A stretch of 64,000 bases of DNA from Schmidtea polychroa (Eukaryota). Positions 2,549 through 34,610 of the stretch are shown in pieces. The notes under the pieces were generated by a model. The model was not told where the DNA came from. It did no database searches and worked only from the letters and a program-made list of their open reading frames with translations. The stretch lies in the NCBI GenBank assembly GCA_044892525.1, contig CM097885.1:24740001-24804000 (forward strand). The letters are read 5' to 3'. Within the stretch, counting starts at the first letter, position 1. Every line of letters begins with the position of its first letter. A program made the position numbers and the translations under genes.

Positions 2549-3259
2549 CATGATAGTAGGTAGTTAGGAGCTTACGGCAACAATATGGGGGGGGGGGGGG
2601 TAAAAAATGTTGCAAACTTTTGATTGCATAACTTTTTCCGTAGACATTTTTTGATTACATAATTGTTGCCGTAATGCCCAATGTTTTCTGGGATTTTAAA
2701 TACAAAAAATTTTTTTTTCAATAAACAAGCCAAGGATAAATATTATTTGGGTGGGTCTCCTTGGTCCTGAGAATTTCAATAGAAAAAGGTAGTCTTCAAT
2801 AAAAAAGCATGGATTATTCAGACTATAGTGAGGGGATCTTCTTGGTCATGGGAATTTCAATAGAAAAGGTGGTTTACATTAAAAACGCATAGTAAATTTT
2901 TAAAATAAAGTAAATTAAGGTCCTAAAAAATTAAATTAAAGTAATGAATGGGCACAAATAACTAAATTAAGGTTCTAAAAAATTAAATTAATTAAGTTAA
3001 TTAAGGTCCAAATTTTAAAATTAAGTAATCAATGGTAAAAAATTAAAGTTAAATAAGTAAATTAAAGTAATAATTTTTAAATTAAGTAATCAATGGTAAA
3101 AAATTTTAAATAAGTAAATTAAAGTAAATTAAAGTATGATTTTGAAATTTATTAACAAAATAATAGTAGGTGTTTGAGAATTGAAATTTTTTAATGAAAA
3201 TTTTTATGAAATAATGTAAAATTGTCATTGAAAAAATTTTCATTTCTCAGGCGCCGTTT

Positions 3260-3493
3260 AGTAGGTAGTTAGTGGCCCGCTGCAGCAATGACCCCCCTCC
3301 CCCGATTTTTTTGCTGCACGATTTTTTTTGCTGCAACTTTTGATTACGCAATTGTTGCAACTCGTTTTTTTTCCTAGGATTTTCAATACAAAAAAAAAAG
3401 TTGCAACAATTGCGCAATCAAATGTTGCAGCAAAAAAAAAGATGCAGCACAAAAAAAAGGCTTGCATTTGCAGCGGGATCCTAACTACCTACT
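3260..3493. mobile_element. Internal 234-bp mini-element with the same AGTAGGTAGTTAG termini
   Basis: AGTAGGTAGTTAGTGGCCCGCTGCA...TGCAGCGGGATCCTAACTACCTACT; its interior resembles the outer TIR; flanked by 46-bp inverted (not direct) repeats. Confidence 0.8.
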
Positions 3494-3539
3494 AAACGGC
3501 GCCTGAGAAATGAAAATTTTTTCAATGACAATTTTACAT

Positions 3540-4330
3540 GAAAATTATGGTCTGAAAAAAATTAAATTACAGTAAATTATGGTCCAAATTTTTCAATTAC
3601 AGTAAGTTATGGTCCAAATTTTTCAATTACAGTAAATTATGGTATATATTTTTAAACTTAAGTAAATTAAGGTCTAAAATTTCAATTAAGTAAATTAAGG
3701 TCTAAAATTTTCAATTAAATTAAATTAGGTCTAAAATTTTCAATTAAGCAAATTATGGTCTAAAATTTTCAAATAAGTAAATTAAGGTCTAAAATTTTCA
3801 AATAAGTAAATTATGGTCTAAAATTTTACATGAAAATTATGGTCTAAAATTTCAATTAAGTAAATTAAGGTCTAAAATTTTCAATTAAGTAAATTATGGT
3901 CTAAAATTTTCAATTAAGTAAATTATGGTCTAAAATTTAAAATTAAAGTAAATTATGGTATATATTTTTAAACTTAAGTAAATTAAGGTCTAAAATTTCA
4001 ATTAAGTAAATTAAGGTCTAAAATTTTCAATTAAATTAAATTAGGTCTAAAATTTTCAATTAAGCAAATTAAGGTCTAAAATTTTCAAATAAGTAAATTA
4101 TGGTCTAAAATTTTCAATTAAGTAAATTAAGGTCTAAAATTTTCAAATAAGTAAATTATGGTCTAAAATTTTACATGAAAATTATGGTCTAAAATTTTCA
4201 ATTAAGTAAATTATGGTCTAAAATTTTAAATTAAAGTAAATTAAGGGTCAAAATTTAAAATTAAAGTAAATTAAGGTTCTAAAAAATTAAATTAAAGTTA
4301 ATTAAGGTCCAAATTTTTTAAATTAAGTAA
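3540..4330 (+). repeat. ~29-30 bp tandem minisatellite inside the Polinton-like element
   Basis: Repeated unit AAGTAAATTA(T/A)GGTCTAAAATTTTCAATT; degenerate copies occur in both TIRs. Confidence 0.9.
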
Positions 4331-5659
4331 TCAATGGTCAAATATTTTAAATAAGTAAGTTAAATTAATAATTTTTAAATAAGTAATGTAATAAGCAAAT
4401 TAAAGTAAGATTTTAAATTTATTAACAAAATAATAGAAGGTGTTTGAGAATTGAAATTTTTTAATGAAAATTTTTATGAAATAATTTTTAAAGTAATTTT
4501 AGATGGAAATTTTTATGGAATAATTTTTAAGATAATTTTTAATGAAAAATTTTATGAAATATTTTTCAATGAAAATTTTAAATGAAAACTTTTATGAAAT
4601 ATTTTTCAATGACAATTTTAGAAAAAAAAAATTTTTTTTGAAATAATTTTAGATGGAAATTAAGTAAATTAAGGGATACATTTTTAAATTAAAGTAATCA
4701 ATGGTCTATATTTTAAACTTCTATATTCGGTAAACAAGGACTAAATTAAGTAAATAAAGGGTTAAATTAAAGAAAATTATGACTAAGTTAATTAGATTTA
4801 AAGAATAATTACCTTTTCATTTAACACTACAGTGTTAATTCTTACCATTTTAGAATAATATTTTTTATCAAAGTTCTTATCTTGATTTATTTAATTTTAA
4901 TGAATTAATTTGAAAGATTATTTAGATACATTTTGGTGTTTAAGGTATTCATTAGTAATTATTTTTTTAGAGTTGATGGTTTTTGTGAATTTTTATCATT
5001 TTCGTGAATTTCATGTGGATTGAATGAATATTAAAAAATTTTAAGTTAGTTCTAAGATAAATTTAATTAATTTCTTGATAATTGGATGCATTTTAATTGA
5101 TTAGTTTTTTAATTTTAAATAAAAATTATTTTTAATGACAGTCAGGTTAATAATCACGTGATAGGATATGACTTTGTAATAATATTTTTTTTTCATATAT
5201 TTTCTAAGAATTTCATGTTGACTGATTAAAAGTTTTAATGGTGATAAATTTAATTGATAAATTTAATTAATTTCTTGATAATTTGTTAAATTTTAAATAA
5301 AAATTAATTTTTTTTTAATGACTGTTAGGTTAATAATTAAGTAATTGGTTTAATTTTAGATGACTTTGTAATGCATTTGACTAAATAATTTTTTCAATAA
5401 TTTTCTAAGAATATTTACACATTGATGAACTTTTTTAAAAAAAAACATAACCTAAGAAACCAGTTAACCTTATCAAGAACTTTAAATTTACTTGATAATT
5501 TACAGAAATGATATACAAAATTTAATTTACAGAAATAATTTACAAAATAATATACAGAAATTTATGATTAAGTTTGCTTTTATGAACAATCAATATATAT
5601 CATCTCTAGTTAGGTATTTGATAGGTGAAATATTTGTAGTAAATAATAAGTTTATTATG

Positions 5660-5784
5660 TCTTTGTTACATAACTCGACTTTAGCGTCAAAATGTGTTTT
5701 TAAAATAAATTTTAATTTTAAAATACCGCAACGTAATATATTAATTTTTTCCTACCCTTCCTTGATTTTGATTGGTTAGAATTT
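5660..5784 (+). promoter_or_regulatory. Putative promoter/cis module shared by two Polinton-like elements
   Basis: Ends ~75 bp upstream of the pPolB ATG (5860) and contains GATTGGTT (reverse CCAAT); a closely similar block lies at 59212-59335 and a partial one at 59864-59932. Confidence 0.55.
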
Positions 5785-5859
5785 GTTCCTATAAACAATA
5801 ATAATCTATAAACAATAATCAATCATTAGTCACATTTAACAAATAATTAACCTTTAAAA

Positions 5860-8800
5860 ATGAATTCTTTAATAGAAAACGTTATGAATGTCCGAGAAAA
5901 AATTCAGGAATTTGGTAAATTTTAATTTATTTATTAATTAATTTAATAATTAATTTAGATAATATTAATGAAGACAATTTAAAATCGAAGATTAAAGGAA
6001 ATTTGAAAAGAAAAAGTAAACATAATTTATAATTTATTGATTTAATTAATTAATAATTTAGGTAATACGAATAAAGAGAAAAATTATGTCAATGTGTCAA
6101 TAAATCGAAATGAAAATTTACAATGTAAGTATTGATTACTTTTTATAATTTAAAGGAAATTTAATATAATTTTTTATTTAAGTAAATGTTAATATTTTTA
6201 ATTTAGTAAATTTTTATTCTTTAGTAAATAAAATTTGTAAAATAATAATAATTTGCAAATTTTTGCGTAAACAATTATTAAAATATTTCATTTAAATTAT
6301 ATTTTTTTTTATTAAATTTTTATTTTATAGGTATACTTTATCCAAATTATTGTTCATCGAAAGAACATGATAATAATTGCCATTCTATAATGGAGAATTA
6401 TTACACGAAAAAATATTATAATAAAACTTATTTTATATGTCCCGTATGTAAGACTAGTGACCCTGTAACATATAGAGTTTTTTATAATAAACATAAAAAT
6501 CACTTAGATAGGTTTAATTTTAAAAAAGATAGTGTTTTTAAAAGACCCTCGACTATAGAAAAAAATAATACAAATAAAAAAATTAAATTAGATACTTCTT
6601 CTTTTGAATCCCAGGTTGAATTAGATGTTGAATCCCAGGCTGGATTGTCTTTTGTTGAATCCCAGGACGGATTGCCTTTTGTTGAATCCCAGGACGGATT
6701 GCCTTTTGTTGAATCCCAGGTCGGATTGCCTTTTGTTGAATCCAATGATGGATTGGTTGTTGAATCCCAGGACGGATTGGTTGTCGAATCCCAGGTCGGA
6801 TTGTCTTTTGTTGAATCCCAGGTCGGATTGCCTTTTGTTGAATCCAATGTTGGATTGGTTGTTGAATCCCAGGTCGGATTGGATAATATTTCCCTTGACT
6901 CTTGGGACGGAAAAACTAATATACAAATAGGGGGTAATCTTCCCATAATACAAACAGATCTAAGGGGTACCCATCAAATATTAAGTTTAAATACTAGCGA
7001 CTTAAATATAAAGGAAATAATATTTCCAGAACAATTAATTATAAAATTACGAGATATTATTAAAGAATTAGGCTCCGTCAAAATTCAATTCGGAATAACA
7101 ATCGAATTTGAAAAAGACGGGGAAATAAAGGTTAATAATATCTCCAATTACGCAAAACCTTTAACTGCATCATTTTTTGATGAAGGTAACTAGGGAACTA
7201 AATGAGAAAATAACTAATACTACAGAGTTAGAAAGTAGTTGGATTATAAAAAATATAACAGAAATCCACTTCACTATAACAAAAATAAGTAGGTTAATTA
7301 GATTAAGTGGTAGGAGTTTCATTGAAACACCTACTTATCTAAAAAATAAATATTGTTTAATTAATATAAAAAACACCGATGATTCATGTTTTTTATATAG
7401 CATTTTAGCTATTTTAAAATATGATGAGGTTATTACACAATATAGAAATAGGACATCCAGTTATAATTTATCCGACTTAATATATAATCTGTTAGAATTA
7501 CCCATGAAATTAAAAGACATTAGGAAATTTGAATCTAAAAATCCTGGCTTAATAATTAACGTTTTTTCTTATGATAATAGCAAACAATTAACAGATAATT
7601 ACGTTTTAAAACATCCACATTTAGACATTATACATCGTTCCAAAGTTTTAAATGGAACTGTAATTAATTTACTACTATTAAATAAAGGAAAAAATTTCCA
7701 TTACGTTGCTATAAGTAATTTAAATAGGTTACTGAATTGTGGTATCAACACTACTTGTCCTACACGCATACAATCATTATGGTGCCATCGGTGTTTGAAT
7801 GGGTTTAGGTATAAACACGCACTGGAAAAACATGAAATATTATGTAAACGTAATCAATTAGGAACAACTCTTTACACTTTCCCTCAAAATAAATTATTGC
7901 AGTTTACTGACTGGTCGAAAACAGTAACTCCTCCTTTTGTAGTTTATGCGATTTTGAGGCTATTTTACCTTCTGATAATCTTCATTTCCAACGACACATG
8001 CCAATATCTGCTGGTCTTTTACTTGTAAATAACTTTGACGGATCTAAATCTTATCAACAGTTCATAGGTTTAGATTGCGTCGAGAGTTTTTTAAGTGCTA
8101 TAGAGGATATAGCAATAAATAAGGTTCTTACTTTTTATTATAAAATGGGTAGGAAACCTATGATTAAATTAACGAAAATTGAACAACGTCAATTTGTTAG
8201 TGCATCTGTTTGTTATCTTTGTTTGAAATCTATCGTCGATCCTGTTAGAGATCACGATCATTTTACGGGGAAATACTTGGGTGCAGCTTGTAGCACATGT
8301 AACATAAATAGGAAAATAAATAAAATTTTGCCTATCGTATTTCACAACTTGAAGGGATACGATATGCATCATATACTTAAATACGGATTAAATAAATTTA
8401 AAAATTGGACTTTAGGTTGCATCCCAATAACGACTGAAAAATTTATTTCTTTGATTGCTCATTTAGGCAAAATTAGCTTAAGATTCATTGATTCTTATCA
8501 ATTTGTCAATGATTCTTTAGCTAAAGCAGTCAAAACTTTGAATTCTTTGCCTTTTACTAATTCTGCTTTTTCTGGTACTATAGTTTCTGAAAAAGGAATC
8601 TTCCCTTATAATTTCGCCACATCTTTAGATATTCTCCAAACTACTTATGAATTACCACCAATCTGAGAGGGTGTCACTGAGCTTGAGTATGAAAAAGCTC
8701 AGGAGATTTGGGTAGAAACTAATTGCCTAACTTTATTAGATTATATGATGATCTACCTAAAACTTGATTGTTTTCTTTTGGCTGATTTCTTTCATCAGTT

Positions 8801-10388
8801 TCGGTTGAAATCTATTGCTCACAATAGATTGGAACCATTGAATTATTTCGGAATTCCAGGTATGTCTTGGTCTTCTGCATTAATGTCTTTAAATGAACCA
8901 ATTGAGCTCATAACTGAAAACGAAATGTTTAGCTTTTATGAGGGTGGAATAAGAGGCGGTCTTACTTTTGTGAATAAGCATTACGTAAAAACCGATGAGA
9001 ACACCGAGTTACTATATATAGATATTAATAATCTTTATGGTTGGGTTTTAAGTCAATCATTACCTTGTGGCGAATTTAGTTTGGTTCTTGATGGATTTGA
9101 TTTAATAATGGATGAATGTAGGAATTTAAATCTTGAATCTTTGTCTTATGGATACACTCTTGAAGTTGATCTTGTAATTCCTTCTGAGCTTCATGATAAG
9201 TTGGATGATTTCCCTGTAGCTGCTGAAAAAATGAAACCTGCTGGGTCTAAGGTTGAAAAATTATTATTAACTCATCTTCCAAAATCTAATTATGTGATTC
9301 ATTGGAGATTATTAAAATTATATTTGGAACTTGGTGTTAAAGTAACACGTGTAAATAGGGGTGTAAGATTTAAGCAATCTCCAATTTTTAAAAAATATAT
9401 AGATACAAATACAGAATTAAGGTCAAAAAGCATAAATAGCTTAGATAAAAATTATTATAAATTGCTAAATAACAGTTTATACGGTAAAACAGTTGAAAAT
9501 TTAAAGAGAAGAATGAATCTTCGTCTTTGTACAACTGCCAATAAATTAGTTAAATATTCTTCAAAGCCGACTTTTAAAAAATCTATTAAAATAGACGATA
9601 ATTTAATCGCGGCATTATTGAATTCAGATTCTATATGTTTAGATAGACCGAGTTACATTGGTCAATCTGTACTTGATCTATCTAAACTTAGAATGTATGA
9701 ATTGCAATATAAGGATCTGGAATCATTTCGCAATGAGTTTAATTGTAAAATTAATATCGTTGCAGGTGATACAGATTCCTTTTTCCTCGAAGTCATTAAC
9801 TGTAAACTTGAGGTTCTTTTACCTGCAATGATTCGAGATAATTTATTAGATACTTCCAATTACAATAGTTGTCATTTCTTATATGGTAAGAACCTAGATT
9901 CTGTCATTGGAAAGTTCAAAGACGAGAATAAAGGTCTTAAATATAAGGAATGGGTTTTTCTTAGACCTAAATGTTATAGCTTGTTGGGTGATGAGGAAAC
10001 AAAAAAGGCTAAAGGTGTAACATTGAAAGGTAGTGACATAAAACATAAGTCATACCTGGATTGTTATAACACTAACCAGATTTTTTCGGTTCCTCAGACT
10101 AAAATAACAAGCAAAAATCATCAAATTTTTACAATTAAAAACACAAAAATAGCACTAACTAACAAAGATGACAAAAGGGTTTGGGTGGGGAAAATTACTA
10201 GTCTTGCATATGGGCATGTAAGATTAAGTGAATTAAATATTGGAGAAAATGTTGGAGAAATTGTTGGAGAAGATTTTGATGAAAATGTTGGAGAAGATGA
10301 GGAAGAATTTAATGAAGAAGATTTTGGAGATTATGTTGGAGAAGATGATATCGATATCGATGACGTTATTTTGTCTGATGAGGACTAA
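5860..10388 (+). pseudogene. Protein-primed DNA polymerase B (Polinton-type), spliced gene with 2 frameshifts and 1 premature stop
   Basis: Exons 5860-5914, 5959-6015, 6062-6124, 6331-10388 are joined by GT-AG phase-1 introns in frame with ORF 6390. Motifs: ExoI VYA(D)FE (1-nt deletion ~7950), endonuclease-VII-like DHDHFTGKYLGAACSTCN, FHNLKGYD, YIDINNLY, KLLNNSLYGK, GDTDS, FLRPKCY. Frameshift ~7190; in-frame TGA 8664-8666; AATAAA ~10397. Confidence 0.93.
6603..6880 (+). repeat. Coding 27/30-bp tandem repeat (VESQDGLPF-like) in the pPolB N-terminal region
   Basis: About 10 units of GTTGAATCCCAGG(A/T)CGGATTG(CCTTTT); this explains the overlapping shadow ORFs in other frames. Confidence 0.9.
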
Positions 10389-10580
10389 TTTTATTAAATA
10401 AAAGTTTATATCTATACATTCGTTATTTTTTTGGTAAATTTTTATGTTTGTTATGTGTCTAGTTCATTTTTATGTGTTTAGTTAATGTTTATATGTTTTG
10501 TTATGTGTCTAGTTATTTTTATGTGTTTAGTTAATTTTTTATGTGTTGTATAGTATTTGGTTGATATATTATTATTATTA

Positions 10581-10630
<50 letters not shown>

Positions 10631-11606
10631 TCATAAAAATTTCTATTAAAAATTATCTTAAAAATTACCATTGAAAAATATTTCATAAAAATTTCCATTA
10701 AAAATTACCATTGAAAAATATTTCATTAAAATTTCTAATAAAAATTACTTAAAAATTAATCCATAAAAATTACCATTGAAAATTAATCATAAAAAATTAT
10801 TTCATAAAAATTTTCATTAAAAAATACCATTGAAAAATATTTCATTAAAATTTCTATTAAAAATTACTTAAAAAATTATTTCATAAAAATTTTCATTAAA
10901 AAATTTCAATTCTCAAACACCTACTATTATTTTGTTAATAAATTTCAAAATCATACTTTAATTTACTTTAATTTACTTATTTAAAATTTTTTACCATTGA
11001 TTACTTAATTTAAAAATTATTACTTTAATTTACTTATTTAACTTTAATTTTTTACCATTGATTACTTAATTTTAAAATTTGGACCTTAATTAACTTAATT
11101 AATTTAATTTTTTAGAACCTTAATTTAGTTATTTGTGCCCATTCATTACTTTAATTTAATTTTTTAGGACCTTAATTTACTTAATTTTAATTTTTTTAGA
11201 ACCATCATTTACTTTATTTTTAAATTTTAGACCCATAATTTGCTTTATTTTAAAAATTTACTATGCGTTTTTAATGTAAACAACCTTTTCTATTGAAATT
11301 CTCATGACCAAGAAGATCCCCTCACTATAGTCTGAATAATCCATGCTTTTTTATTGAAGACTACCTTTTTCTATTGAAATTCTCAGGACCAAGGGACCCA
11401 CCCAAATAATATTTATCCTTGGCTTGTTTATTGAAAAAAAAATTTTTTGTATTTAAAATCCCAGAAAACATTGGGCATTACGGCAACAATTATGTAATCA
11501 AAAAATGTCTACGGAAAAGTTATGCAATCAAAAGTTTGCAACATTTTTTACCCCCCCCCCCCCCCCCCCTATTGTTGCCGTAAGCTCCTAACTACCTACT
11601 CATGAT

Positions 11607-14290
<2,684 letters not shown>

Positions 14291-14387
14291 TAATTTCTAT
14301 AATCAAAAACACCATCACAACAGTTATCATTCAAACTATCACAATCATTCAAAATCATACAACCCTTATTCATATCATTAATTACCT

Positions 14388-15416
14388 TTAATTTATTGCT
14401 CCGATCACCTCCTCGTGTGGTGGAGCATTCCCATTTGGGTACTCAAAATCAGCCTCTGGATCCTCGTCACCGAATGCAGCCACTGATTTATGGAATTTTC
14501 GACGTCTGCCTGGAAATAACTCATGGCACTGATGTTTGAAATGTCCAGATCTTTTACAATGGGCACATTGAATATTGGGGCATTCAGATCTTCTATGACC
14601 TTCTTCGTGGCACGCCCAACATCGCAAAATTTGATTTGTTCGGACATAATCTCGCGAATGAAATTCCCTGGTATTATAAGGCTTACTTCTATTCATAGGT
14701 TTCCATCCATTTGAAATATCATATCGATGTTTTCTGGTAAGATCGCATTTGAATCTTGGATTATGTTGAGGTTCTCTTGTATATTCATCTTTGAATCTGG
14801 GATTAGCTTCTCGTTCTCGAATTGATCTGTTATCATAACTATATCTTGGTAAGCTCTTCTTAACAGAATCAGCATAGCGTTGTGTTTTATCCATTGAAGC
14901 TACATCAGCATGAAATACATTAATTTCTTTTGAAACTTGATCGTGTCTCTTTAATCTTTCTTTCATTTCATCAAATGATTTTAAATCTTGCATTTTGAGA
15001 TCTTTTTTAACTTCTTTATCTTCAAGCGAATTGAATAGCAAATATTTCTTTAGTTCTTCTTCATCAAGTTTATGCTTCAAAATATTTTTTGCAAGTTTCT
15101 CAATTTTTGAGCAGAATTCTTCGGCAGCCTCATTTCCTTGACGATAATTTAGCGCTTCGTTGAGATCATCGATAAGACTTCTGTTCTTAGCAAAAGCGTT
15201 TCTTAATCTTTCTGTATAATGCAGAGTTTCATTAGTCAACTCATTTTTCTTCGTTGAATTGATTGATAGAAAAGCTTTGACGAATTTGCTTCTGTATTCA
15301 TCGACAATATTTGTCATCTCGAAGAATCGTTCCGTTTCTAAGATAAAATCTTCCACGTCTGAATCCATGTCATATGTTTCTGGTGGTTTGATAAAATTTG
15401 CAATTGTGGTCGCCAT
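14388..15416 (-). CDS. gag: Gypsy Gag with two CCHC zinc knuckles
   Basis: Open ORF with CWACHEEGHRRSEC and CAHCKRSGHFKHQC; the likely start is ATGGCGACC (MATTIANF). Confidence 0.88.
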   Translation of the reverse strand: MATTIANFIKPPETYDMDSDVEDFILETERFFEMTNIVDEYRSKFVKAFLSINSTKKNELTNETLHYTERLRNAFAKNRSLIDDLNEALNYRQGNEAAEEFCSKIEKLAKNILKHKLDEEELKKYLLFNSLEDKEVKKDLKMQDLKSFDEMKERLKRHDQVSKEINVFHADVASMDKTQRYADSVKKSLPRYSYDNRSIREREANPRFKDEYTREPQHNPRFKCDLTRKHRYDISNGWKPMNRSKPYNTREFHSRDYVRTNQILRCWACHEEGHRRSECPNIQCAHCKRSGHFKHQCHELFPGRRRKFHKSVAAFGDEDPEADFEYPNGNAPPHEEVIGAIN

Positions 15417-15443
15417 ATTAGCCACAGAGCTACGGGTATTAAT

Positions 15444-15627
15444 AGAATCCATAACTAAAACACGTTTATTATAAAAACACTAATATTATTAAAACAAATT
15501 ATAACGTTAATTTGTTTGAGGAGTTTCTAAAAAATAATAATTAATGTATAAGTAAGGATTTCAGCATACAATCAAACATGCACAACATCATACTATTATT
15601 TAAATACAAATTACAAAACGCCTCACA
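15444..15627 (-). repeat. Gypsy 5' LTR, truncated (first ~184 bp only)
   Basis: Near-identical to 2028-2212 but lacks the equivalent of 1806-2027. Confidence 0.9.
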
Positions 15628-21989: not shown

Positions 21990-24327
21990 CAGGCCCAGCC
22001 CAAGACTGACTTATATGGAAACGAAGAAAGGTGTAATCAATGACATATTTATCCAAGAGATGAAAATAATCGAAGCTTTTCCAATTCGCTTTTTTATCGT
22101 CAAATAAGTAATGGTGAAAAATTCCTAAGAAAATGGTTGCACTATTAAGAATCCAAAAATTCTGTATTTTGTTTTTCTTGCAAATTTTATGATCCATCAG
22201 GTAGGTCAAATCTAGCCAAATCTGGTTTATGGGATTGGAAAAATATTCACGACAGCTTGAAAATGCACGAACGGTCAGTTTCACATTTAAAATGTGAAAA
22301 AAACTGGATAGAAACTCGATTAAGATTAAAAGGCAATAAAACTATTGATAAGAATTTGCAGTCTTTGATAGTCCAAGAAAAATATAATTGGAAAAAGGTA
22401 CTAGAAAGATTAATCAACATAACATTATTTTTGTCAAAAAATAATTTAGCATTTCGGGGTTCTTGTGATAAGTTATTTGTTCCGCATAATGGAAATTCTT
22501 TCGGCCTTGTTGAACTTCTAGGAAAATTTGATTTACCATTAAATGAGCATTTGCGCAGGGTGGTCTCACAAGAAATTCATGTTCATTATTGTGGAAAAAC
22601 TATACAAAACGAATTAATAAGTACACTTGGTGATATGACAAGATGTCATATTTTGGATTCTGTTTGTAAACCGAAATATTTTTCGATTATTTTAGACTGC
22701 ACACCTGACATAAGCCATATCGAACAGCTCTCCATAACGTTAAGATTTTATGATGTTGAGGATATGGAAATAAAAGAGCATTTTGTATCCTTTAAACCAG
22801 TTTTTGATTCTACTGGAAAAGGATTATATGATGATATTTCTGAAAGTTTAGAAGAATTCAATTTGGAATTAGCAAACTGTAGAGGCCAAGGATATGATAA
22901 CGGCGCTAATATGAAAGATAAAATTAAAGGAGTGCAAGCTAGAATTTTAAAAGAAAATCCAAGAGCGTTTTTTATGCCTTGCGGTTGTCACTCAATTAAC
23001 CTACTAATTGGTGATAGTGTTTCTTCTTCAATAATGTGCATAAATTTTTTCGGATATGTTCAAAGAATTTATACTTTGTTTGCTGCATCTGTTGGACGAT
23101 GGAATATATTGAAAAAACATATTAAATCATTAAATCCTAAACCTTTAAGTGAAACGAGGTGGGAATGTAGAATCGAATGCATTAAAGCAATAATGTTTGA
23201 AATCACGGAAATTAGAAACGCATTAAATGAGTTGCAAGACACAATATTAGATGCTGCAGTTGTTTCAGAAGCTAGCTCTTTATCTGAAAAATAGAAGATT
23301 TCGAGTTTTTGTTAACATTATCTGTCTGGTACGTACTTTTGTCAAAATTTAATATTGTCAGCAAATCCATGCAAAAAGCTACATTTGATATGAGTAACGC
23401 CATCGAGCTTCTTTGGAATTGTAAGATTTTTCTAGAAAATTATAGAGACTCCGGTTTTTCTGATGCTTTAAAATCGGCCAAAGATCTCGCTGCGCTATTA
23501 AACGTGAACGCACAATTTAAAGCTGTAAGAATCAGAAGGCGACAAAAACAATTTAGTTATGAGTGTGACGATGAAACTCCAGATGTAAATGACCCAGAAA
23601 AAATATTATAAAAATCATGTTTTTAATGTTATGCTGGATCAATCGTTGATATCTATATCAGAAAGGTTTCAGCAAATGAAAGATTTCGAAGATTCGTGGG
23701 GTTTTTTGTTCAATATTCACAATAATAAAAATCGTTGTGATTTGCTGTAGAGTTGCAAAGATTTACATCTGAAATTAACAAATGAGGCCAGTAGTGATAT
23801 AAATGGAATAGAATTGTGCGAGGAAATCGAATCATTGAAGCAATTGGTACCAGATGATGTTAAAGATCCTTTAATATGTTTACAATTTATCAATGATAAT
23901 AATTTGAAAAGTACAGTACCAAATCTGTGGGTGGCTTTACGAATCCTCGTAACAATTCCTGTTAGTGTTGCGAGTGGTGAAAGAAGTTTTAGTAAATTAA
24001 AACTAATAAAAACGTATTTGCGATCTACTATGACGGAAGATAGGTTGAATAATTTGGCCATTATTTCAATTGAAAATAATGTTGTAGCAAACCTAAATTT
24101 GGAGGCAGCAATAGAAAAATTTGCAGACATGAAAGCCAGGAAAAAATCATTCTTATAAATTCTGTTTTTTTATATATATGTCAATCGAAAAAAATGAAAT
24201 AAAGTAATAAATGGATTGTTTTTTGTTAAACTTTTTTATTTTATCATAATTTTTGTACCTAATTTTTAAAATAGGGCGCTTTTTATAATTTTTGCCTGGG
24301 GCGTATAATTATCTCGAACCGGCGCTG
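21990..24327 (+). mobile_element. hAT transposon (Tip100/ZMYM1-like transposase pseudogene at 22257-24158)
   Basis: 8-bp TSD GTCTCCTG (21982-21989, 24328-24335); imperfect TIRs CAGGCCCAG/CAGCGCCGG; motifs LAFRG, ILDCTPDISH, GQGYDNGANM, CGCH, SETRW, SVASGERSFSKLKLIK. Confidence 0.95.
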
Positions 24328-25626: not shown

Positions 25627-25649
25627 ATAAAATGAAATAAAATAATTCA

Positions 25650-27470
25650 TTGCGTAAAAGAAAACTAGAAAGTCTACAAAAAATTACAATACCTGTCTTT
25701 GAAGGCAAAATGAAAGAGTACGAACCATGGAAAGCAGCTTTTACTGCGTGTGTTGAGGAAGCGGAAGGTGATGAGGTTGAAAAGATGTTTCACCTGCACA
25801 AGTATCTTCACGGAGAGCCATTAAAGTTAATTGAAAATCTAGGATATTCGGCAAAGGCCTATCAAATGGCTACAGAGAAGTTGGATAGGCGATATGTTGG
25901 GGATGAAAGGATATATTTATCAATGTTAGAGGAGATGGACAAGTTCACGCCAATTCGAGAAGGAGATTTGAAGGATTTAGACTTATCTGTTGGATTATTA
26001 GAAACAGTCACCGTTCAATTTAAATCCACTGGGAAAGAATCTGAGTTAAAGACTGGATGTCTTTTTCAAAAGTGTTTGGGCAAGTTAACTACAAATCTTG
26101 TTTATAAATGGAAGAAGGACAAAATAGAAAAGTAATTGCGGGAGACGATAGAGGATTTGAGAAGATGGATACAACAAGAAGCGGAGATCCTAAGATCTAC
26201 TAACGAGGTCGTGTATGGGATTCAACCAAATCCAGGACTTATGATGGGCCAAGAGTAGAAGATGTGTCTAGAGGAAGAGAAAGCTTCAATCCAGGAGGTC
26301 GGACGCATTTTACGAGGCAACCAGATGGCAGAGTTAAAAGTGGAACGTTCATACAGGCGAATTACTCTAACTTTTATAGATTAGAGTGTGTACAATGTGG
26401 TGGTCAACATTACCTAGACCAATGTGACAAGTTCAAGCAACTCACAATTTCAAAAAGGAAGAAAGTCATCGAAGAAAAGAAACTGTGCAGGAATTGCTTC
26501 AAAAGAAATCACATGGCCAAGGAATGTCGTAAAGAATCTTTCTGCAAGGTTACCGGATGTAAACAAAAACATAACGAATTATTACATGAAAGACAACTCA
26601 GTGAGGAGAGTGAAAAAGGTAACAACACGATGTTGACCCAGAAAGGGATGAACGAGAAAAACGTAAGACCTTACCTTAGTTTAAGAACAATTCCAATCTA
26701 CCTGGAAAATGGGGACAAGAAAATAAAAGTCAATGCACTGTTAGATGATGCAAGCTCAGTAAGCTACATCAATCTAAGAATTTTAAAAGAGTTTCGTTTG
26801 AAAGGGGTTGAAAATATGACACCGATAGGGGTTATCGGCGGTAATGTCCAACAAATGATAGCTTCTCCAGTGACCATGGAGTTAATTAGTAACGACTGCC
26901 GATTGACTAAGAACTTCAATTCGCTGGTCGTAAAAATTATCACGGGAGAAATGAGGGTAATGAATTGGGCGAGAGAAAAACATAAGTGGACTCATCTTAA
27001 GGGCATCCATTTTTCGATGCTAGACGAAAGACAGACAGTTGAAGTTTTAATTGGGGCAGATTATTTAACGCTTCAACGAGCACTCAAAGAAATCGATTGT
27101 AAGTTGGATGAACCGATTGCCCATTTAACTCCACTTGGCTGTACATGTGTTGGAAGAACCTCATTGGGAAGAACTTGGAATCATCAAAGCAATTTTATAA
27201 GAACGTTATTTGGTAATTGCGATGATTTGGAAAGACAAATGGAACGATTTTGGGAGATTGAAGAAAGTGGCTTAAAGGAAAATATATTTGCAGCAAAAGA
27301 CCAGGTGATTTATGAGAAAACAAAATCTGAGATGAAAAATATAGACGGACATTTCGAGGTAAAAGTGCCATGGAAAGAGTCACCAAAATCTTTGCCCAAT
27401 AGTGATAAAATGACAGAAAGTCGGCTGCGAAGTTTAACTAAAGGCTTGAAAAGGAAGATTTACGAACTGA
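25650..27470 (+). pseudogene. BEL/Pao gag-protease (RT/RH/IN absent)
   Basis: ORFs 25650-26135 and 26264-27487 with CVQCGGQHYLDQC, CRNCFKRNHMAKEC and CKVTGCKQKHNELLH; similarity stops just before RT. Confidence 0.88.
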
Positions 27471-27483
27471 GTATCAGGATAAA

Positions 27484-27990
27484 TTGAATGAGCATTCAAT
27501 CTCTAATATTGACAACCACAATAAAATCTTAATTGAAATGATCGAAGAATTGAGAAAGAAAATGAATGAGCTAAAGATATATGATATGAGAAAAGATGAA
27601 TCAATTGAATCATTAAGAAATGAAATCAATGCGATAAAGCCAGAAAATCAAGAGCTGAAAACCATGATGAGAAATAGCAATAATAATTTGTGGATCAAAT
27701 TGGATCAGATGGATATCGAGATAAATGCCAGGTGCAGAAATGATACGGTCAAATCGATAAATGAGCAAATTGAATCTATCAATCAATTAGAATTAGAACA
27801 GCAAATGAAAATTGTCGACAGAAAATGCCAAGAATTGAATGGAAATGTGCACATCATTCACCAGGTGAAGGCTGACAGTGATAGGATGGCGAAGAGAATG
27901 CAGGAAATGAAGGAGGAAAGAGATAAACTGACACGGGAAATAGAGCGAATCAATGAATTTTCGAAAATGCGGCATAATGGGGGGGGGTAA
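27484..27990 (+). CDS. Coiled-coil ORF in place of BEL RT-RH-IN
   Basis: 168-aa heptad-rich E/K/N/M ORF between the pre-RT segment and the pol C-terminal remnant. Confidence 0.5.
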   Translation: MNEHSISNIDNHNKILIEMIEELRKKMNELKIYDMRKDESIESLRNEINAIKPENQELKTMMRNSNNNLWIKLDQMDIEINARCRNDTVKSINEQIESINQLELEQQMKIVDRKCQELNGNVHIIHQVKADSDRMAKRMQEMKEERDKLTREIERINEFSKMRHNGGG

Positions 27991-28921: not shown

Positions 28922-29665
28922 TTACTCGATCTCTTGCAGGTCTTTATCTAAGATTGCAGTGATGTCCAATCTTTGCAATTTTTTACTAATCGTTCTTAGA
29001 TCCCCTAATTCTTCATCTAGACTCTCCTTTTGATCTTCAAATTCATCCAACCATTCACTGACTTCCTTCCTATTTATATCATTGAGAATCTTGTTTCTCA
29101 ATCTCGTTAATTTTCCTTTTTTCATTCTCTTTTTCCACAGTCCTTTTTCTAAAATCTCTTCGTCATTGCCACCGCACAGCCTGAGTGAAAAATGAATTGT
29201 CGAACCTACTTGTATGCTATAGTCGTTCAATATTCGTTTTTTTTCTAATTGCTTTCCAGCATAGACTAACGTTTGATAATTTTCCGGAATTCCTTCTTTG
29301 TTTTGAATTTTTTCTTTTACATTTTCAATCGTGTCATTCAATTCAATGTCAAGAGTAATTGTCTTATCAGTAAGAGTTTTGATAAATATTAGCTTCCTAC
29401 TTCTCAATCGAAACTCTCCTTCTTCCTCTATTCGACAACAAGAAGCCTCAAAACCCATTACCCCGCTCGCCCTCAACCTTGACTTAGCTCGCAAAAACGC
29501 CGAGCTTTTTATTTTATTTTTATTTAAACGGTTCCCCTGGCTACCCACTTTAAAAGAGTGCTGGGGCCCATAGCAGCACTTTTTCACTCTCGATGGAGAA
29601 GGGAGGATTGTTAATTTTACATATATAACTTCAAAATAAAATGAAAATAGTTTAAAGGAAACCAT
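28922..29665 (-). CDS. Ubiquitin-domain fusion protein (Ub ~29168-29392 plus charged C-terminal extension)
   Basis: [35 protein letters not shown]...LVYAGKQLE...[21 protein letters not shown]; the true start is uncertain. Confidence 0.85.
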
Positions 29666-29730
29666 TATTCACCATTGATCAGCCAGGGCTGTCTCCAATG
29701 CTCCATTGGTGCGTAGCCCCCTGAAGGTAA

Positions 29731-30303
29731 CTACACTCTGCTACCATGTTTAATTAACCACTTTTTTAATCACTGAACATGGTATCTATGCTGACAGGGC
29801 AACTCGTACACTTCATCGGCCACCTCATAATCTGACAGACAAATGGAACCTGTATCATTATCTTCGGTGATTTTCTTGACTTGTAATTTCTCAATATCTG
29901 CCTCATTTGCTGGTGGAGAACCACTCTTTTCAAATTGATTCATAATTCTCGTTGCAAAATTGTCGAAACTTTGATCTGAAAATATATAATCTGATCTAAA
30001 ATCTAGAGGTAGCAATCCACCAAATAAATTTGATATTAGTTGGCCAAAAACACTATTTCTGTTATCAGGATCTCTTGGAGTAATAAAAAAGGAACCATCA
30101 GTTTCGTTTGTAGTACTTCCACCAGGAATATGACGAATAATATGAAAAAAATTCAAAGCATCATCATCACTTTCCATTGAGTTATCAGATTCAATTCTTT
30201 CAATAAATCCATCATTGCACGTCACACATTTACCATCCTGAGATATGTCAACGTCTCTGTTGCATTTATGATAATAGTAATTATCTGTATTAATCGTAGC
30301 CAT
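29731..30303 (-). pseudogene. Intronless RNF115/RNF126-like RING-H2 E3 ligase copy
   Basis: N-terminal YYYHKC...CVTCNDGFIERI zinc ribbon, SPPA motif, ICLSDYEVADEVYELPCQHRYHVQ*LKKWLIKHGS; TGA at an expected Cys, and the first RING Cys and final CxxC are lost. Confidence 0.85.
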
Positions 30304-30523
30304 TAAATAAATTTACAAAAATTTATTTTCAAAACTTCCAGAAACTCCCAATCTTTTAAACAAACTTGACAAATTCAAACTTCATAACAAATCCAAAATT
30401 CCAATCGAAATCCGAATAAATCTTTAAAATTACACTGATCGCGTCTGTGTGCGCATACAAAAAACCAATGTCAAACGCAAAAAAAACGCACACAGACGCG
30501 ACACATAAACTGATAATTCACCA

Positions 30524-32062: not shown

Positions 32063-34610
32063 TGATTTTCTAGCTCCCGATTTCCCGGGAAATCCACCAA
32101 AATATCTATTCCCGATTTCCCGAGAAAAAAATTAAATTCCCGGGATTATTTTAAACATTTATCAACAAATAATTGAAAATAAATATTTCAAAACTACTTC
32201 TTGTTTTATTTAAAAATATTTGAAACCAAAGTAACAATTGACTTTTTTGTTTTCGAGATTATGCAGGTGCACTATAACTATATAATATTTTTTTAAAATC
32301 AAAGTGTGTGTGTCTACTGTTTAACAAGCATAAATTTAAAGTTTAAATAATTTTCTTTGTTTATTTGTGAATTAAAGTAAGTTTTATTAAATTTCAATAA
32401 CAATTTTTTTACTGATATACAATTTTAAATAATAAAGGGTTATTAAGGAGAAAGAATGTCAACAGAAAGGACTTGGATATTTTATTTTACCATTGATTCT
32501 ACTAATAAGGACAAAGCAAAATGCAATAAATGTAATCAAATGATTGTGAGAAAAGGAGGTTCAACAAGTGGAATGATCCGTCATTTGAATATCCAACATG
32601 GAATAGATTTGGTTACTAAGAATGATAAATTCGACGCGCCAAGTACATCATCGCCTGGCACATCTGATAAATCTATTTCAGGAAATCAAAATTCCATTTT
32701 AAAATATATAAAGAAAAAAACATTAGAAGAAATCCTTGCAAAACTAGCAGCTCTAGATGGAATTTCCATCAATGTTATTTCGAAAAGTACATTTATTCGT
32801 GAATCTATTTCTGCGAAAGGATATTTTCTTCCTAAAAATCCTTCACACATAATGAATCTTATATTTAACTATTATGCCGAAATCAAATCCGAACTTTAAT
32901 GTAAATTTTCAACTATTTTAAAAGCAAATCAAAAATTTTGCTTAACTTTAGATGAATGGACAAGCAGCCGTAATCGTAGATACATGAATATCAATGATGG
33001 AATATTCGAAAATTTGGGATTAATAAGAATTGAAGGAAGTTTTGGAGCTGAAAAAACGTTAGATATAGTTAATGAGAGGTTAAAGGAATTTCATTTAAAT
33101 TTATCTACAGATATTATTGCAATCATAACTGATGGAGCAGCCGTTATGGTTAAATTTGGGAAGTTAGCTCCTGCTTTCCATTTACAATGCTACACACATG
33201 GAATTGATCTGGCTGTTTTGGATACTCTTTTTGGTTCTGCTAAGACAAAATTATTATTGGTAAAAAATCAGAAGCAACAAGTAGACCAATTATTAGATGA
33301 TGATAGCGACATTGAAGGTATAGAAAGTGATGATGATAGTCTTGATAAAGAGGAAAATTCAGAATTTGAGGGATGTCATATGAACATGATACAAATATAT
33401 GTGACCTTAAATTCAATGAACTAAAACCAAAAATCCAGGATGTAATAAAACAGATCCGCAAGATATCATCATTTTTTGAAAAATCGCCAGTGCGCAACAC
33501 AATTCTTCAGCAAAATGTTAAATTAGAATATGGTAAAGAATTAAGCTTATTATTAGACTGCACGACAAGGTGGAATAGCTTGTTAGATATGTTGGAAAGA
33601 TTTGAGCAAATTAGAATTCCGATTAAAAGAAATCTATGTGAAATTAATGCTACATATCTACTTGATAACGAAGATCAGCTCTTCCATATAGTAAAAGCAT
33701 TAATTGCTTGTTTACTTCCAGTAAAATTAGCCTCCGAAGCATTATGTCGACGTGATATGGATTTAATAAAAAGTGAGGGGATTCTGTCGTTTGTAATAGA
33801 GACGTTAAATGCGTTAGATAATTCAATATCTCGAGAATTACTACAAAATTTTAAATTGCGGATGATAACTTGAAGACCAAAAATTTTAATTTCACCCAAA
33901 TAATCCAGATTTATTGTATTCTAAACAAGATGATAATTTTTTTGAAATGTCGTCGAAATCTGAAATGATTAAATTATCTAAAGAATTGTTACACCGCCTA
34001 TTTCCAGTTTATATCATTGAGGACACCGTTGAGCTTGAAAATGAAAATAGTGTATTAATTTCCGATACGGAAATTAATATAGAATCAGAGATGCCAGCAA
34101 ATGTTTTGAAACGAAAGCTTGAAAGTGCTATAAATATATGAGCACCAAAAAACAAAATACCGGAGATAAAGAATATAAGACTTTATTAACCGAATTTAAT
34201 TTATTTAAAGCCAGTGGAAAATTAACAAAAAATTTGAAGATGCTCTTAGATGCTCTTCTTTGCATTAAACCAACCTCAGTGGAAAGTGAAAGAGTATTTT
34301 CGACTGCTGGCCTTTTTGTCAATAAACTTAGGACAAGACTCAACGATAAATCAGTTAATGCACTAGTTTGTCTTAGAACTCATTTTAAGAACTGTGCTGA
34401 TAAATAACTTTTTGTTGTAATTAAGTTTTTTTATAGTAATTAAGTTTTCAGTTGTAATGAAAAAAAATGAATATATTAAATGTTTTTTTTAAATTCAATT
34501 TTTTTTAATTAGTAGATAGTATAACCCGGGTTTCCCGGTTTTCCCAGGAACATCTTCCAAATATTCTCGTTTCCCGGGATTCATTATTTGGCGGGAAATG
34601 AGAAAACCTA
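32063..34610 (+). mobile_element. hAT transposon with BED-finger transposase pseudogene (32456-34407)
   Basis: W.YF...KAKCNKC...GSTSGMIRHL..QH (BED), LDEWTS, TDGAAVM, CYTH, TRWNS, PTSVESERVFS; subterminal TTCCCGGG repeats; right end ...GAAAACCTA; degenerate 8-bp TSD TGAATCAC/TGAACCAG. Confidence 0.9.

What the first reader, a model, noticed from the sequence alone, without database searches (positions are those of the whole stretch)
2555..11600. Polinton-type element reduced to a single gene (pPolB) but integrated with a clean 6-bp TSD
Seen: AGTAG...CTACT termini, ~0.7-kb TIRs, TSD CATGAT and one gene, a protein-primed PolB. No integrase, ATPase, capsid or protease ORF or remnant is recognisable in the 9 kb; the rest is AT-rich repeat. 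Established: canonical Polintons are ~15-20 kb and encode pPolB plus an RVE integrase that makes 6-bp TSDs. Inference: this is a replication-only unit mobilised in trans, or one segment of a multipartite Polinton-like system.
Basis: partly seen in the sequence, partly recalled or inferred. Interest (0 to 1): 0.85.

Follow-up and report, generated by a model that had tools for sequence, protein, structure and literature searches.

The report
Mirror-image, polymerase-only Polinton satellite
This 9-kb insertion is a damaged half of a many-copy, mirror-image jumping element that carries only a DNA polymerase gene, twice; it likely borrows the integrase of a complete virus-like Polinton in the same genome and likely rebuilds one arm from the other when it is copied.

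Summary
Termini, TIRs, TSD CATGAT and the lack of integrase, ATPase, capsid and protease genes are confirmed. But this copy's pPolB is broken, and its 9-kb form is a deletion whose junction occurs once in the genome. The usual form is an 11-17 kb palindrome: two divergent pPolB genes and no other gene, around a central pair of inward-facing Polinton termini. 33 of 37 elements with both ends found have exact 6-bp TSDs. The arms of one element differ by a median of 1 base in 3.06 kb, against 116 between elements. Inherited pPolB variants are under purifying selection (omega 0.09). A complete 17-kb Polinton family (K; at least 107 capsid genes) shares the termini and exchanges pPolB sequence with the family, so a multipartite system is not needed. 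Best model: a helper-dependent satellite that keeps its own polymerase, is integrated in trans, and copies one arm from the other by fold-back. That mechanism is inferred; post-insertion gene conversion is the main rival. I found no description in seven literature searches. This scan earlier noted gene-less palindromes in this genome, and one note mentioned polymerase-carrying relatives.

The parts
2549..2554 (+). left target-site duplication CATGAT
2555..3215 (+). remnant of the left arm (outer terminus and 661 bp); the rest of the arm, with its pPolB, is deleted
   Evidence: inverted match to 10875-11600; two-arm relatives
3203..3230 (+). deletion junction joining the left-arm remnant to the centre; unique to this copy
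   Evidence: 1 match genome-wide at up to 1 mismatch
3214..3539 (.). centre of the palindrome: 46-bp perfect inverted flanks around a 234-bp stretch bounded by two inward-facing termini; folds as one long hairpin (-138 kcal/mol, DNA parameters, no shuffle control)
   Evidence: the junction motif occurs 121+110 times genome-wide, control 0
3260..3295 (+). inner terminus alpha, of the type found at the ends of the complete family K
3458..3493 (-). inner terminus beta, a degenerate inverted copy lacking the C/G run of true ends
3542..4650 (.). 29-bp and 13-bp AT-rich tandem repeats, about 78-80% like the subterminal repeats of the right end and of K in inverted orientation
5860..6124 (+). three likely leader exons of pPolB (55, 57, 63 nt; introns of 44, 46, 206 nt, all phase 1); splicing not shown by RNA
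   Evidence: sequence; lengths and GT/AG kept in 66 of 74 arms scored
6331..10388 (+). main exon of protein-primed PolB, broken in this copy; includes an in-frame 27-bp tandem array (6626-6881), an endonuclease VII-like insert and an acidic tail
10875..11600 (-). right TIR and outer terminus
11601..11606 (+). right target-site duplication CATGAT
11607..15479 (-). Gypsy LTR retrotransposon (gag, RT-RNaseH, integrase) interrupted by the insertion; its integrase continues at 2553-2186

Best explanation
The window holds a singly deleted, broken copy of a many-copy Polinton derivative whose usual form is an 11-17 kb palindrome with two pPolB genes and no other gene, which is likely integrated by the integrase of a co-resident complete Polinton and likely regenerates one arm from the other by fold-back DNA synthesis. 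SHOWN: palindromic anatomy, 6-bp TSDs, absence of other genes, arms of one element alike across subfamilies up to 6% apart, purifying selection on inherited pPolB variants, a complete family K with the same ends and a recombining pPolB. INFERRED: (1) the element's own pPolB (or K's) primes at the outer termini; (2) a strand that ends in, or has just copied, the central pair of termini folds back and is extended along its own arm, giving a hairpin whose unfolded duplex is the palindrome; (3) integrase from K (or F, which shares the first 12 bp of the ends) inserts it with a 6-bp TSD; (4) the type-A length of about 16.3 kb, close to K's 16.7-17.3 kb, may reflect packaging in helper capsids (weakest step); (5) after insertion, this copy lost most of its left arm and its pPolB decayed.
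For: 50 of the 83 scored pPolB matches (97-100% aa identity) lie in 25 divergent pairs within 20 kb. 33 of 37 elements with both outer ends have exact TSDs, 2 more have one mismatch. 27 two-arm elements: median 1 difference between arms in about 3,060 bases, 116 between elements; 79 substitutions private to both arms of one element against 33 private to one arm. Omega: 0.09 for variants shared by two or more elements (177 syn, 63 non-syn), 0.39 for both-arm private, 1.31 for one-arm private (both vs one, Fisher p=0.023); 0.11 for shared variants absent from 19 K copies. In 17 type-A centres the two sides match up to about 13 bases inside the inner termini (2 mismatches in 170 at positions 0-9, 33 in 170 at 10-19), and the mismatches at 13-14 recur in different clades. 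A second subfamily has a different centre, again bounded by inward-facing termini, of the family-G type. Family K: ends, TSDs and full gene set, pPolB a median 4.8% from the palindromes. One TSD-bounded 8.4-kb single-pPolB monomer exists, and 3 of 20 unpaired centre motifs start at terminus alpha against non-mirror DNA.
Against: No extrachromosomal DNA, reads or RNA were seen; all mechanism is inferred from one assembly. In 8 of 27 elements the arms are no closer to each other than to another element (all in young, near-identical clusters). Three elements carry the same stop or frameshift in both arms, as post-insertion conversion or assembly polishing would also give. No matching far-end TSD was found for the three alpha-start loci (0 of 3), and the TSD-bounded monomer lacks the hairpin. 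163 of 255 shared variants also occur in K, and two palindromes nest in the K clade, so part of the selection signal may be imported. Type-B palindromes are 11.2-14.0 kb, which weakens the packaging argument. Most two-arm loci were picked from paired pPolB hits, which favours young, symmetric copies.
Confidence: 0.63

Rival explanations
1. Same non-autonomous, trans-integrated family, but the palindrome arose once or twice and is copied as an ordinary long-TIR element; arms stay alike through arm-to-arm gene conversion or mismatch repair (in the chromosome or in the snapped-back strand), partly inflated by assembly polishing. The inner termini are then fossils.
For: Stops or frameshifts shared by both arms of single elements (3 cases); omega of both-arm private changes (0.39) is above that of inherited ones (0.09; p=1e-7); no TSD-confirmed hairpin monomer.
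Against: Both-arm changes are still depleted of non-synonymous changes relative to one-arm changes; mismatches just inside the inner termini persist across clades although the stem continues; two different centre types both consist of paired termini.
Confidence: 0.22
2. The palindromes are repeatedly formed copy-back (defective) products of the right end of K that integrate but rarely propagate; selection on pPolB happened in K.
Against: Palindrome arms have no match to K between the subterminal repeats and intron 3, so the leader and promoter are their own; they share a centre K lacks (231 motifs); near-identical clusters occupy many loci with different TSDs; omega 0.11 for variants absent from 19 K copies.
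Confidence: 0.11
3. One reading: the 9-kb one-gene form is itself the mobile unit, or one segment of a multipartite Polinton.
For: Several TSD-bounded one-pPolB copies of 4.7-10.6 kb exist, one a plain 8.4-kb monomer; one 8.15-kb unit has ATPase, integrase and capsid genes but no pPolB.
Against: The window's junction and that of the pPolB-less unit each occur once; the short copies differ in size and breakpoints; single-arm private changes are near neutral (omega 0.79); complete helpers are abundant.
Confidence: 0.04

Closest known systems
Polintons / Mavericks (polintoviruses, adintovirus-like)
   Same: AG...CT ends with a short repeated motif, 6-bp TSD, protein-primed PolB with exonuclease and palm motifs; the co-resident family K has the standard set (rve integrase, A32 ATPase, Peptidase_C5; capsid-type ORFs by homology to family F).
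   Different: No integrase, ATPase, capsid or protease; 'TIRs' of 5-8 kb against 100-1,500 bp given in PMC10748475 (passage); two pPolB genes; an internal pair of termini.
Non-autonomous DNA transposons (MITE-like and foldback derivatives)
   Same: Keep the ends, borrow the transposase or integrase in trans (definition in PMC6431247, passage); gene-less palindromes with the same centre occur here.
   Different: Keeps a 1,300-residue replication enzyme under purifying selection; length near that of the helper rather than minimal.
AAV snapback genomes and copy-back defective viral genomes
   Same: One end of the genome duplicated in mirror image, helper-dependent, may carry a subset of genes (PMC8235507, abstract only).
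   Different: Here the form is integrated, heritable and diversified into subfamilies, with a protein-primed polymerase and no Rep endonuclease gene.
pPolB linear plasmids and rolling-hairpin replicons
   Same: A replicon reduced to its polymerase (plasmid pPolB architecture in PMC11161782, passages); a head-to-head dimer is what 3' hairpin self-priming gives (recalled from parvovirus biology).
   Different: Chromosomally inserted with integrase-type TSDs; hairpin intermediates not observed here.

Membership tests
Polinton/Maverick (autonomous) | protein-primed PolB | tested here: met
   Pfam PF03175 on two window pieces; open 1,305-1,340 aa frames with Exo I-III and Pol A-C motifs in other copies (motif patterns recalled). 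The whole open frames scored only PF02945 in hmmscan. Broken in the window copy.
Polinton/Maverick (autonomous) | retroviral-like (rve) integrase | tested here: not met
   no hit in 36 of 37 elements; the exception is a nested Gypsy
Polinton/Maverick (autonomous) | packaging ATPase, major and minor capsid proteins, protease | tested here: not met
   no hit at E<=0.01 with K proteins in 37 of 37
Polinton/Maverick (autonomous) | TIRs of 100-1,500 bp with AG...CT ends | tested here: inconclusive
   ends met; window TIR 661/726 bp, but it is the remnant of 5-8 kb arms
Polinton/Maverick (autonomous) | 5-8 bp (typically 6-bp) TSD | tested here: met
   33 of 37 exact
Polinton/Maverick (autonomous) | N-terminal terminal-protein and active vOTU domains in pPolB | not tested
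   only a recalled OTU-like Cys motif was matched; no structure was predicted
Non-autonomous Polinton derivative | shares ends with a co-resident autonomous family | tested here: met
   K ends, TSDs and gene set; F shares the first 12 bp
Non-autonomous Polinton derivative | many independent insertions lacking the integrase | tested here: met
Non-autonomous Polinton derivative | mobilisation by the helper's integrase shown directly | not testable with these tools
   inferred from ends and TSDs
Snapback / rolling-hairpin replicon | both arms templated from one strand | tested here: inconclusive
   arm phylogeny and omega classes fit; conversion not excluded
Snapback / rolling-hairpin replicon | hairpin-ended extrachromosomal intermediate | not testable with these tools
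   no reads of free DNA available
Multipartite (segmented) element | complementary segments as recurrent families, no complete genome | tested here: not met
   complete K abundant; pPolB-less unit unique

The most novel reading that the evidence does not exclude
A heritable satellite of an animal Polinton that keeps only the polymerase, replicates through an obligate hairpin monomer primed at an internal Polinton terminus (a rolling-hairpin-like cycle run by a protein-primed polymerase, the cruciform perhaps resolved by its own endonuclease VII domain), doubles itself to capsid length to ride in helper particles, and swaps polymerase alleles with its helper.
Probability: 0.33. Interest if true: 0.87.

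Novelty: new variant of a known kind. Interest (0 to 1): 0.72.

Why it matters
By my recall, Polinton replication is modelled (excised single strand, panhandle, protein priming) but has not been observed. A family whose whole body is one inverted repeat records in its two arms how each copy was made, so the model becomes testable from genomes and from free DNA in a host with many young copies. It also shows a helper-satellite relation inside one genome in which the satellite keeps the replication gene and drops the integrase. Surveys that require five Polinton proteins within 20 kb (methods passage of PMC10748475) would miss such elements.

Tried and rejected
Pfam A32 family search of the genome was too insensitive to find helpers (2 weak hits); a protein query found them. 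Families F, G, H, J were rejected as parents (pPolB 55-62% identical). C2:125116400 looked like a full-length parent but is a family member nested in an F pPolB plus a deletion. A MITE insertion at the centre with its own TSD was rejected for present copies: the flanks are inverted, not direct. Assembly fold-back artefact was rejected for the palindromes: different flanks with TSDs on both sides and interrupted host genes that resume across the insertion; polishing between arms is not excluded. TSD partners for three alpha-start loci: none near. Expression: no RNA holder listed and no reads were laid, so splicing and transcription are untested. Public protein search found relatives at 61% identity or less and gives no context. 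Kapitonov and Jurka 2006 and Krupovic and Koonin 2015 were not held; Repbase could not be searched and may already list such families. No supplements were read. The host was not identified; flatworm names were used as guessed search terms only.
Full report
1. Observation. The element runs from 2555 to 11600, begins AGTAG and ends CTACT, and has CATGAT on both sides. The ends match over 2555-3215 and 10875-11600 with 3 substitutions in 659 aligned bases and several indels. It interrupts a Gypsy integrase whose two parts align, separately, up to and from residue 1023 of a Gypsy pol from another locus. The only gene is a pPolB (Pfam PF03175; an endonuclease VII-like insert scores below cut-off). 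It is broken into four frames by two frameshifts and a stop. Ten core proteins of the closest complete Polinton find nothing in it at E<=0.01.

2. The family. The window lies in a 781-Mb assembly. A 14-base terminus pattern occurs 702+696 times against 7+4 for the control. A search with the C-terminal 518 residues scored 83 of 16,334 candidates, all 97-100% identical; 50 of the 83 lie in 25 divergent pairs within 20 kb. Fetched loci show the usual form: 11-17 kb, two arms of 5-8 kb that are 97-99.7% identical, one pPolB per arm pointing outwards, often with open frames of 1,305-1,340 codons. Of 37 pPolB-family loci where I found both outer ends (window included), 33 have an exact 6-bp TSD, 2 have one mismatch and 2 do not match; 36 have no hit to K core genes and one holds a nested Gypsy. 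Most of these loci were chosen from paired hits, so they favour young symmetric copies. A less biased sample is the 23 paired centre motifs listed on contig 1 up to 164.6 Mb: of 21 examined, 8 are two-arm pPolB elements, 3 keep one arm or part, 9 are gene-less and 1 is a remnant. The window copy is a deletion derivative: its junction is found once genome-wide at up to one mismatch, and its private codon changes are 2 synonymous, 13 non-synonymous and 1 stop.

3. The centre. Type-A elements (17 two-arm copies, median 16.3 kb, range 14.4-17.0) have 205-426 bp between two inward-facing termini, with inverted flanks; the junction motif occurs 231 times, control 0. One inner terminus (alpha) matches ends of family K letter for letter in some copies; the other (beta) lacks the C/G run of true ends. 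Type-B elements (8 copies, 11.2-14.0 kb) have a different centre of about 1 kb, bounded in 4 of 12 loci checked by a differing pair of termini resembling those of family G; others have lost one or both, or duplicated one. Two centre types built the same way suggest a recurring mechanism (inference).

4. The arms. In an alignment of 67 arms over 1,021 codons, the 27 two-arm elements differ between arms by a median of 1 base, while arms of different elements differ by a median of 116 (range 0-195). In 19 of 27 the partner arm is the nearest sequence, in 3 tied, in 5 not; the last 8 lie in near-identical young clusters. 79 substitutions are private to both arms of one element, 33 to one arm. Omega by class: 0.09 for variants shared by two or more elements, 0.39 both-arm private, 1.31 one-arm private, 0.79 single-arm elements (simple counting against the commonest codon, no correction for mutation bias). 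So pPolB was under selection in the replicating lineage, one-arm changes are neutral decay, and both-arm changes lie between. In 17 centres compared without gaps, symmetry holds outside the inner termini (31 mismatches in 765, mostly from one deleted copy) and for the first ten bases inside (2 in 170), then fails (33 in 170, 73 in 170), and the mismatches at positions 13-14 recur in separate clades. Against a simple reading: one stop and two frameshifts are each shared by both arms of a single element.

5. The helper. Families F, G, H and J are complete Polintons but have pPolBs only 55-62% identical. One locus with the window's outer terminus carried integrase and capsid genes and led to family K: 107 of 107 scored capsid matches at 99-100%. 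Of 5 K loci fetched whole, 4 are about 17 kb with TBP-like, ATPase, integrase, two PZ, capsid, protease and pPolB genes, 3 of them with exact TSDs; the fifth is an 8.15-kb unit without pPolB whose junction is unique. K's pPolB is a median 4.8% (minimum 0.9%) from the palindromes; the tree is mosaic, with two palindromes inside the K clade and one K copy among the palindromes, and deep nodes are poorly supported. 163 of 255 shared variants also occur in 19 K copies; the other 92 still give omega 0.11. The palindromes' leader and promoter region has no match in K. K's integrase is interrupted at the same place in 6 of 6 copies by a 42-nt GT-AG segment, likely an intron; F has at least 23 open, near-identical integrases. 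Either could act in trans; which one is not shown.

6. Monomers. One 8,434-bp single-pPolB element with a TSD has a plain K-like left end and no hairpin. Among 20 unpaired centre motifs, 3 begin exactly at terminus alpha against non-mirror DNA, as a hairpin-capable monomer would, and one gene-less locus has a 5-of-6 flank match at its far end. The predicted far-end TSDs of the three were not found nearby. Monomer evidence is therefore suggestive only.

7. Mechanism. A strand whose 3' end lies in alpha can pair with beta a few hundred bases away and be extended along the arm; the unfolded product is the observed palindrome, with inverted flanks and identical arms, and mismatches inside the short stem survive. 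The same product arises if the polymerase turns back on its nascent strand after copying the centre. I cannot separate these. Integration in trans follows from the shared ends and TSDs (established for non-autonomous elements; PMC6431247, passages). The length match to K fits the size constraint reported for vertebrate Mavericks (about 17 kb, 10% variation; PMC8097293, passages), and gene-less type-A palindromes keep 15.4-16.8 kb with non-coding filler, but type B does not fit.

8. What is known. Polintons are defined by pPolB plus integrase, 13-25 kb, TIRs of 100-1,500 bp and 5-8 bp TSDs (PMC10748475, passages; 'palindrom' and 'non-autonomous' do not occur in its text). pPolB architecture and endonuclease insertions are described in PMC11161782 (passages). 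AAV snapback genomes are the nearest viral analogue (PMC8235507, abstract). Seven searches (listings and abstract starts only) showed no palindromic or pPolB-only Polinton family; Repbase, subscription journals and the two founding papers could not be read. Earlier AI notes of this scan describe gene-less palindromes with Polinton ends in this genome, one mentions polymerase-carrying relatives, and several describe the spliced leader in sister families. The element fails membership as an autonomous Polinton and works like a helper-dependent snapback satellite: a new variant of a known kind.

9. Verdict. Observation partly confirmed; interpretation partly supported. The window copy itself is a dead fragment; the family it reveals is the finding. 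Interest 0.72.

Noticed in passing
window 55595-60774: A second, gene-less 5.2-kb element with the family-F type terminus (complete at 60774, shortened at the left end), an internal inverted repeat (55714-55915 / 59076-59277) and CAA-rich arrays; it shares about 170 bp with the region upstream of the pPolB leader.
   Followed up: partly
L127:5954-5995 and five other K copies: K's integrase holds an identical 42-nt GT-AG segment flanked by a short direct repeat, absent from family F: a likely recently gained intron.
   Followed up: partly
L003-L006, L067-L068, L077-L078, L115-L116, L133-L134: At least six pPolB-family elements sit inside genes of other Polintons; enrichment over chance was not tested.
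   Followed up: no
L121-L122 (G000:C1:8291964-8300115): 8.15-kb TSD-bounded K derivative with ATPase, integrase, capsid and part of the protease but no pPolB; junction unique.
   Followed up: yes
L143-L144, L151-L152, L139-L140, L137-L138: Gene-less palindromes of 15.4-16.8 kb share the type-A centre and about 2 kb of arm; the pPolB region is replaced by about 4 kb of unrelated non-coding DNA.
   Followed up: partly
L031:2238-2705; L127:3713-4225: Families F and K encode a short TATA-binding-protein homologue (Pfam TBP E 2e-15 for F); noted repeatedly by earlier scan notes.
   Followed up: no
L047-L049 (G000:C3:16575500-16605499): Family-F sequence in a 6.5-kb inverted duplication at 99.9% identity with mirrored flanks; a larger rearrangement or an assembly fold-back.
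   Followed up: no
L050-L051 (G000:C2:103446500-103466499): A complete family-J Polinton with two pPolB genes in tandem.
   Followed up: no
window 28922-30312: A ubiquitin-like ORF and a RING-finger-like ORF on the minus strand, names by eye.
   Followed up: no
window 22149-23294, 25641-27990, 32447-33873, 51465-51989: Remnants that look by eye like hAT transposases and a BEL/Pao gag-protease.
   Followed up: no
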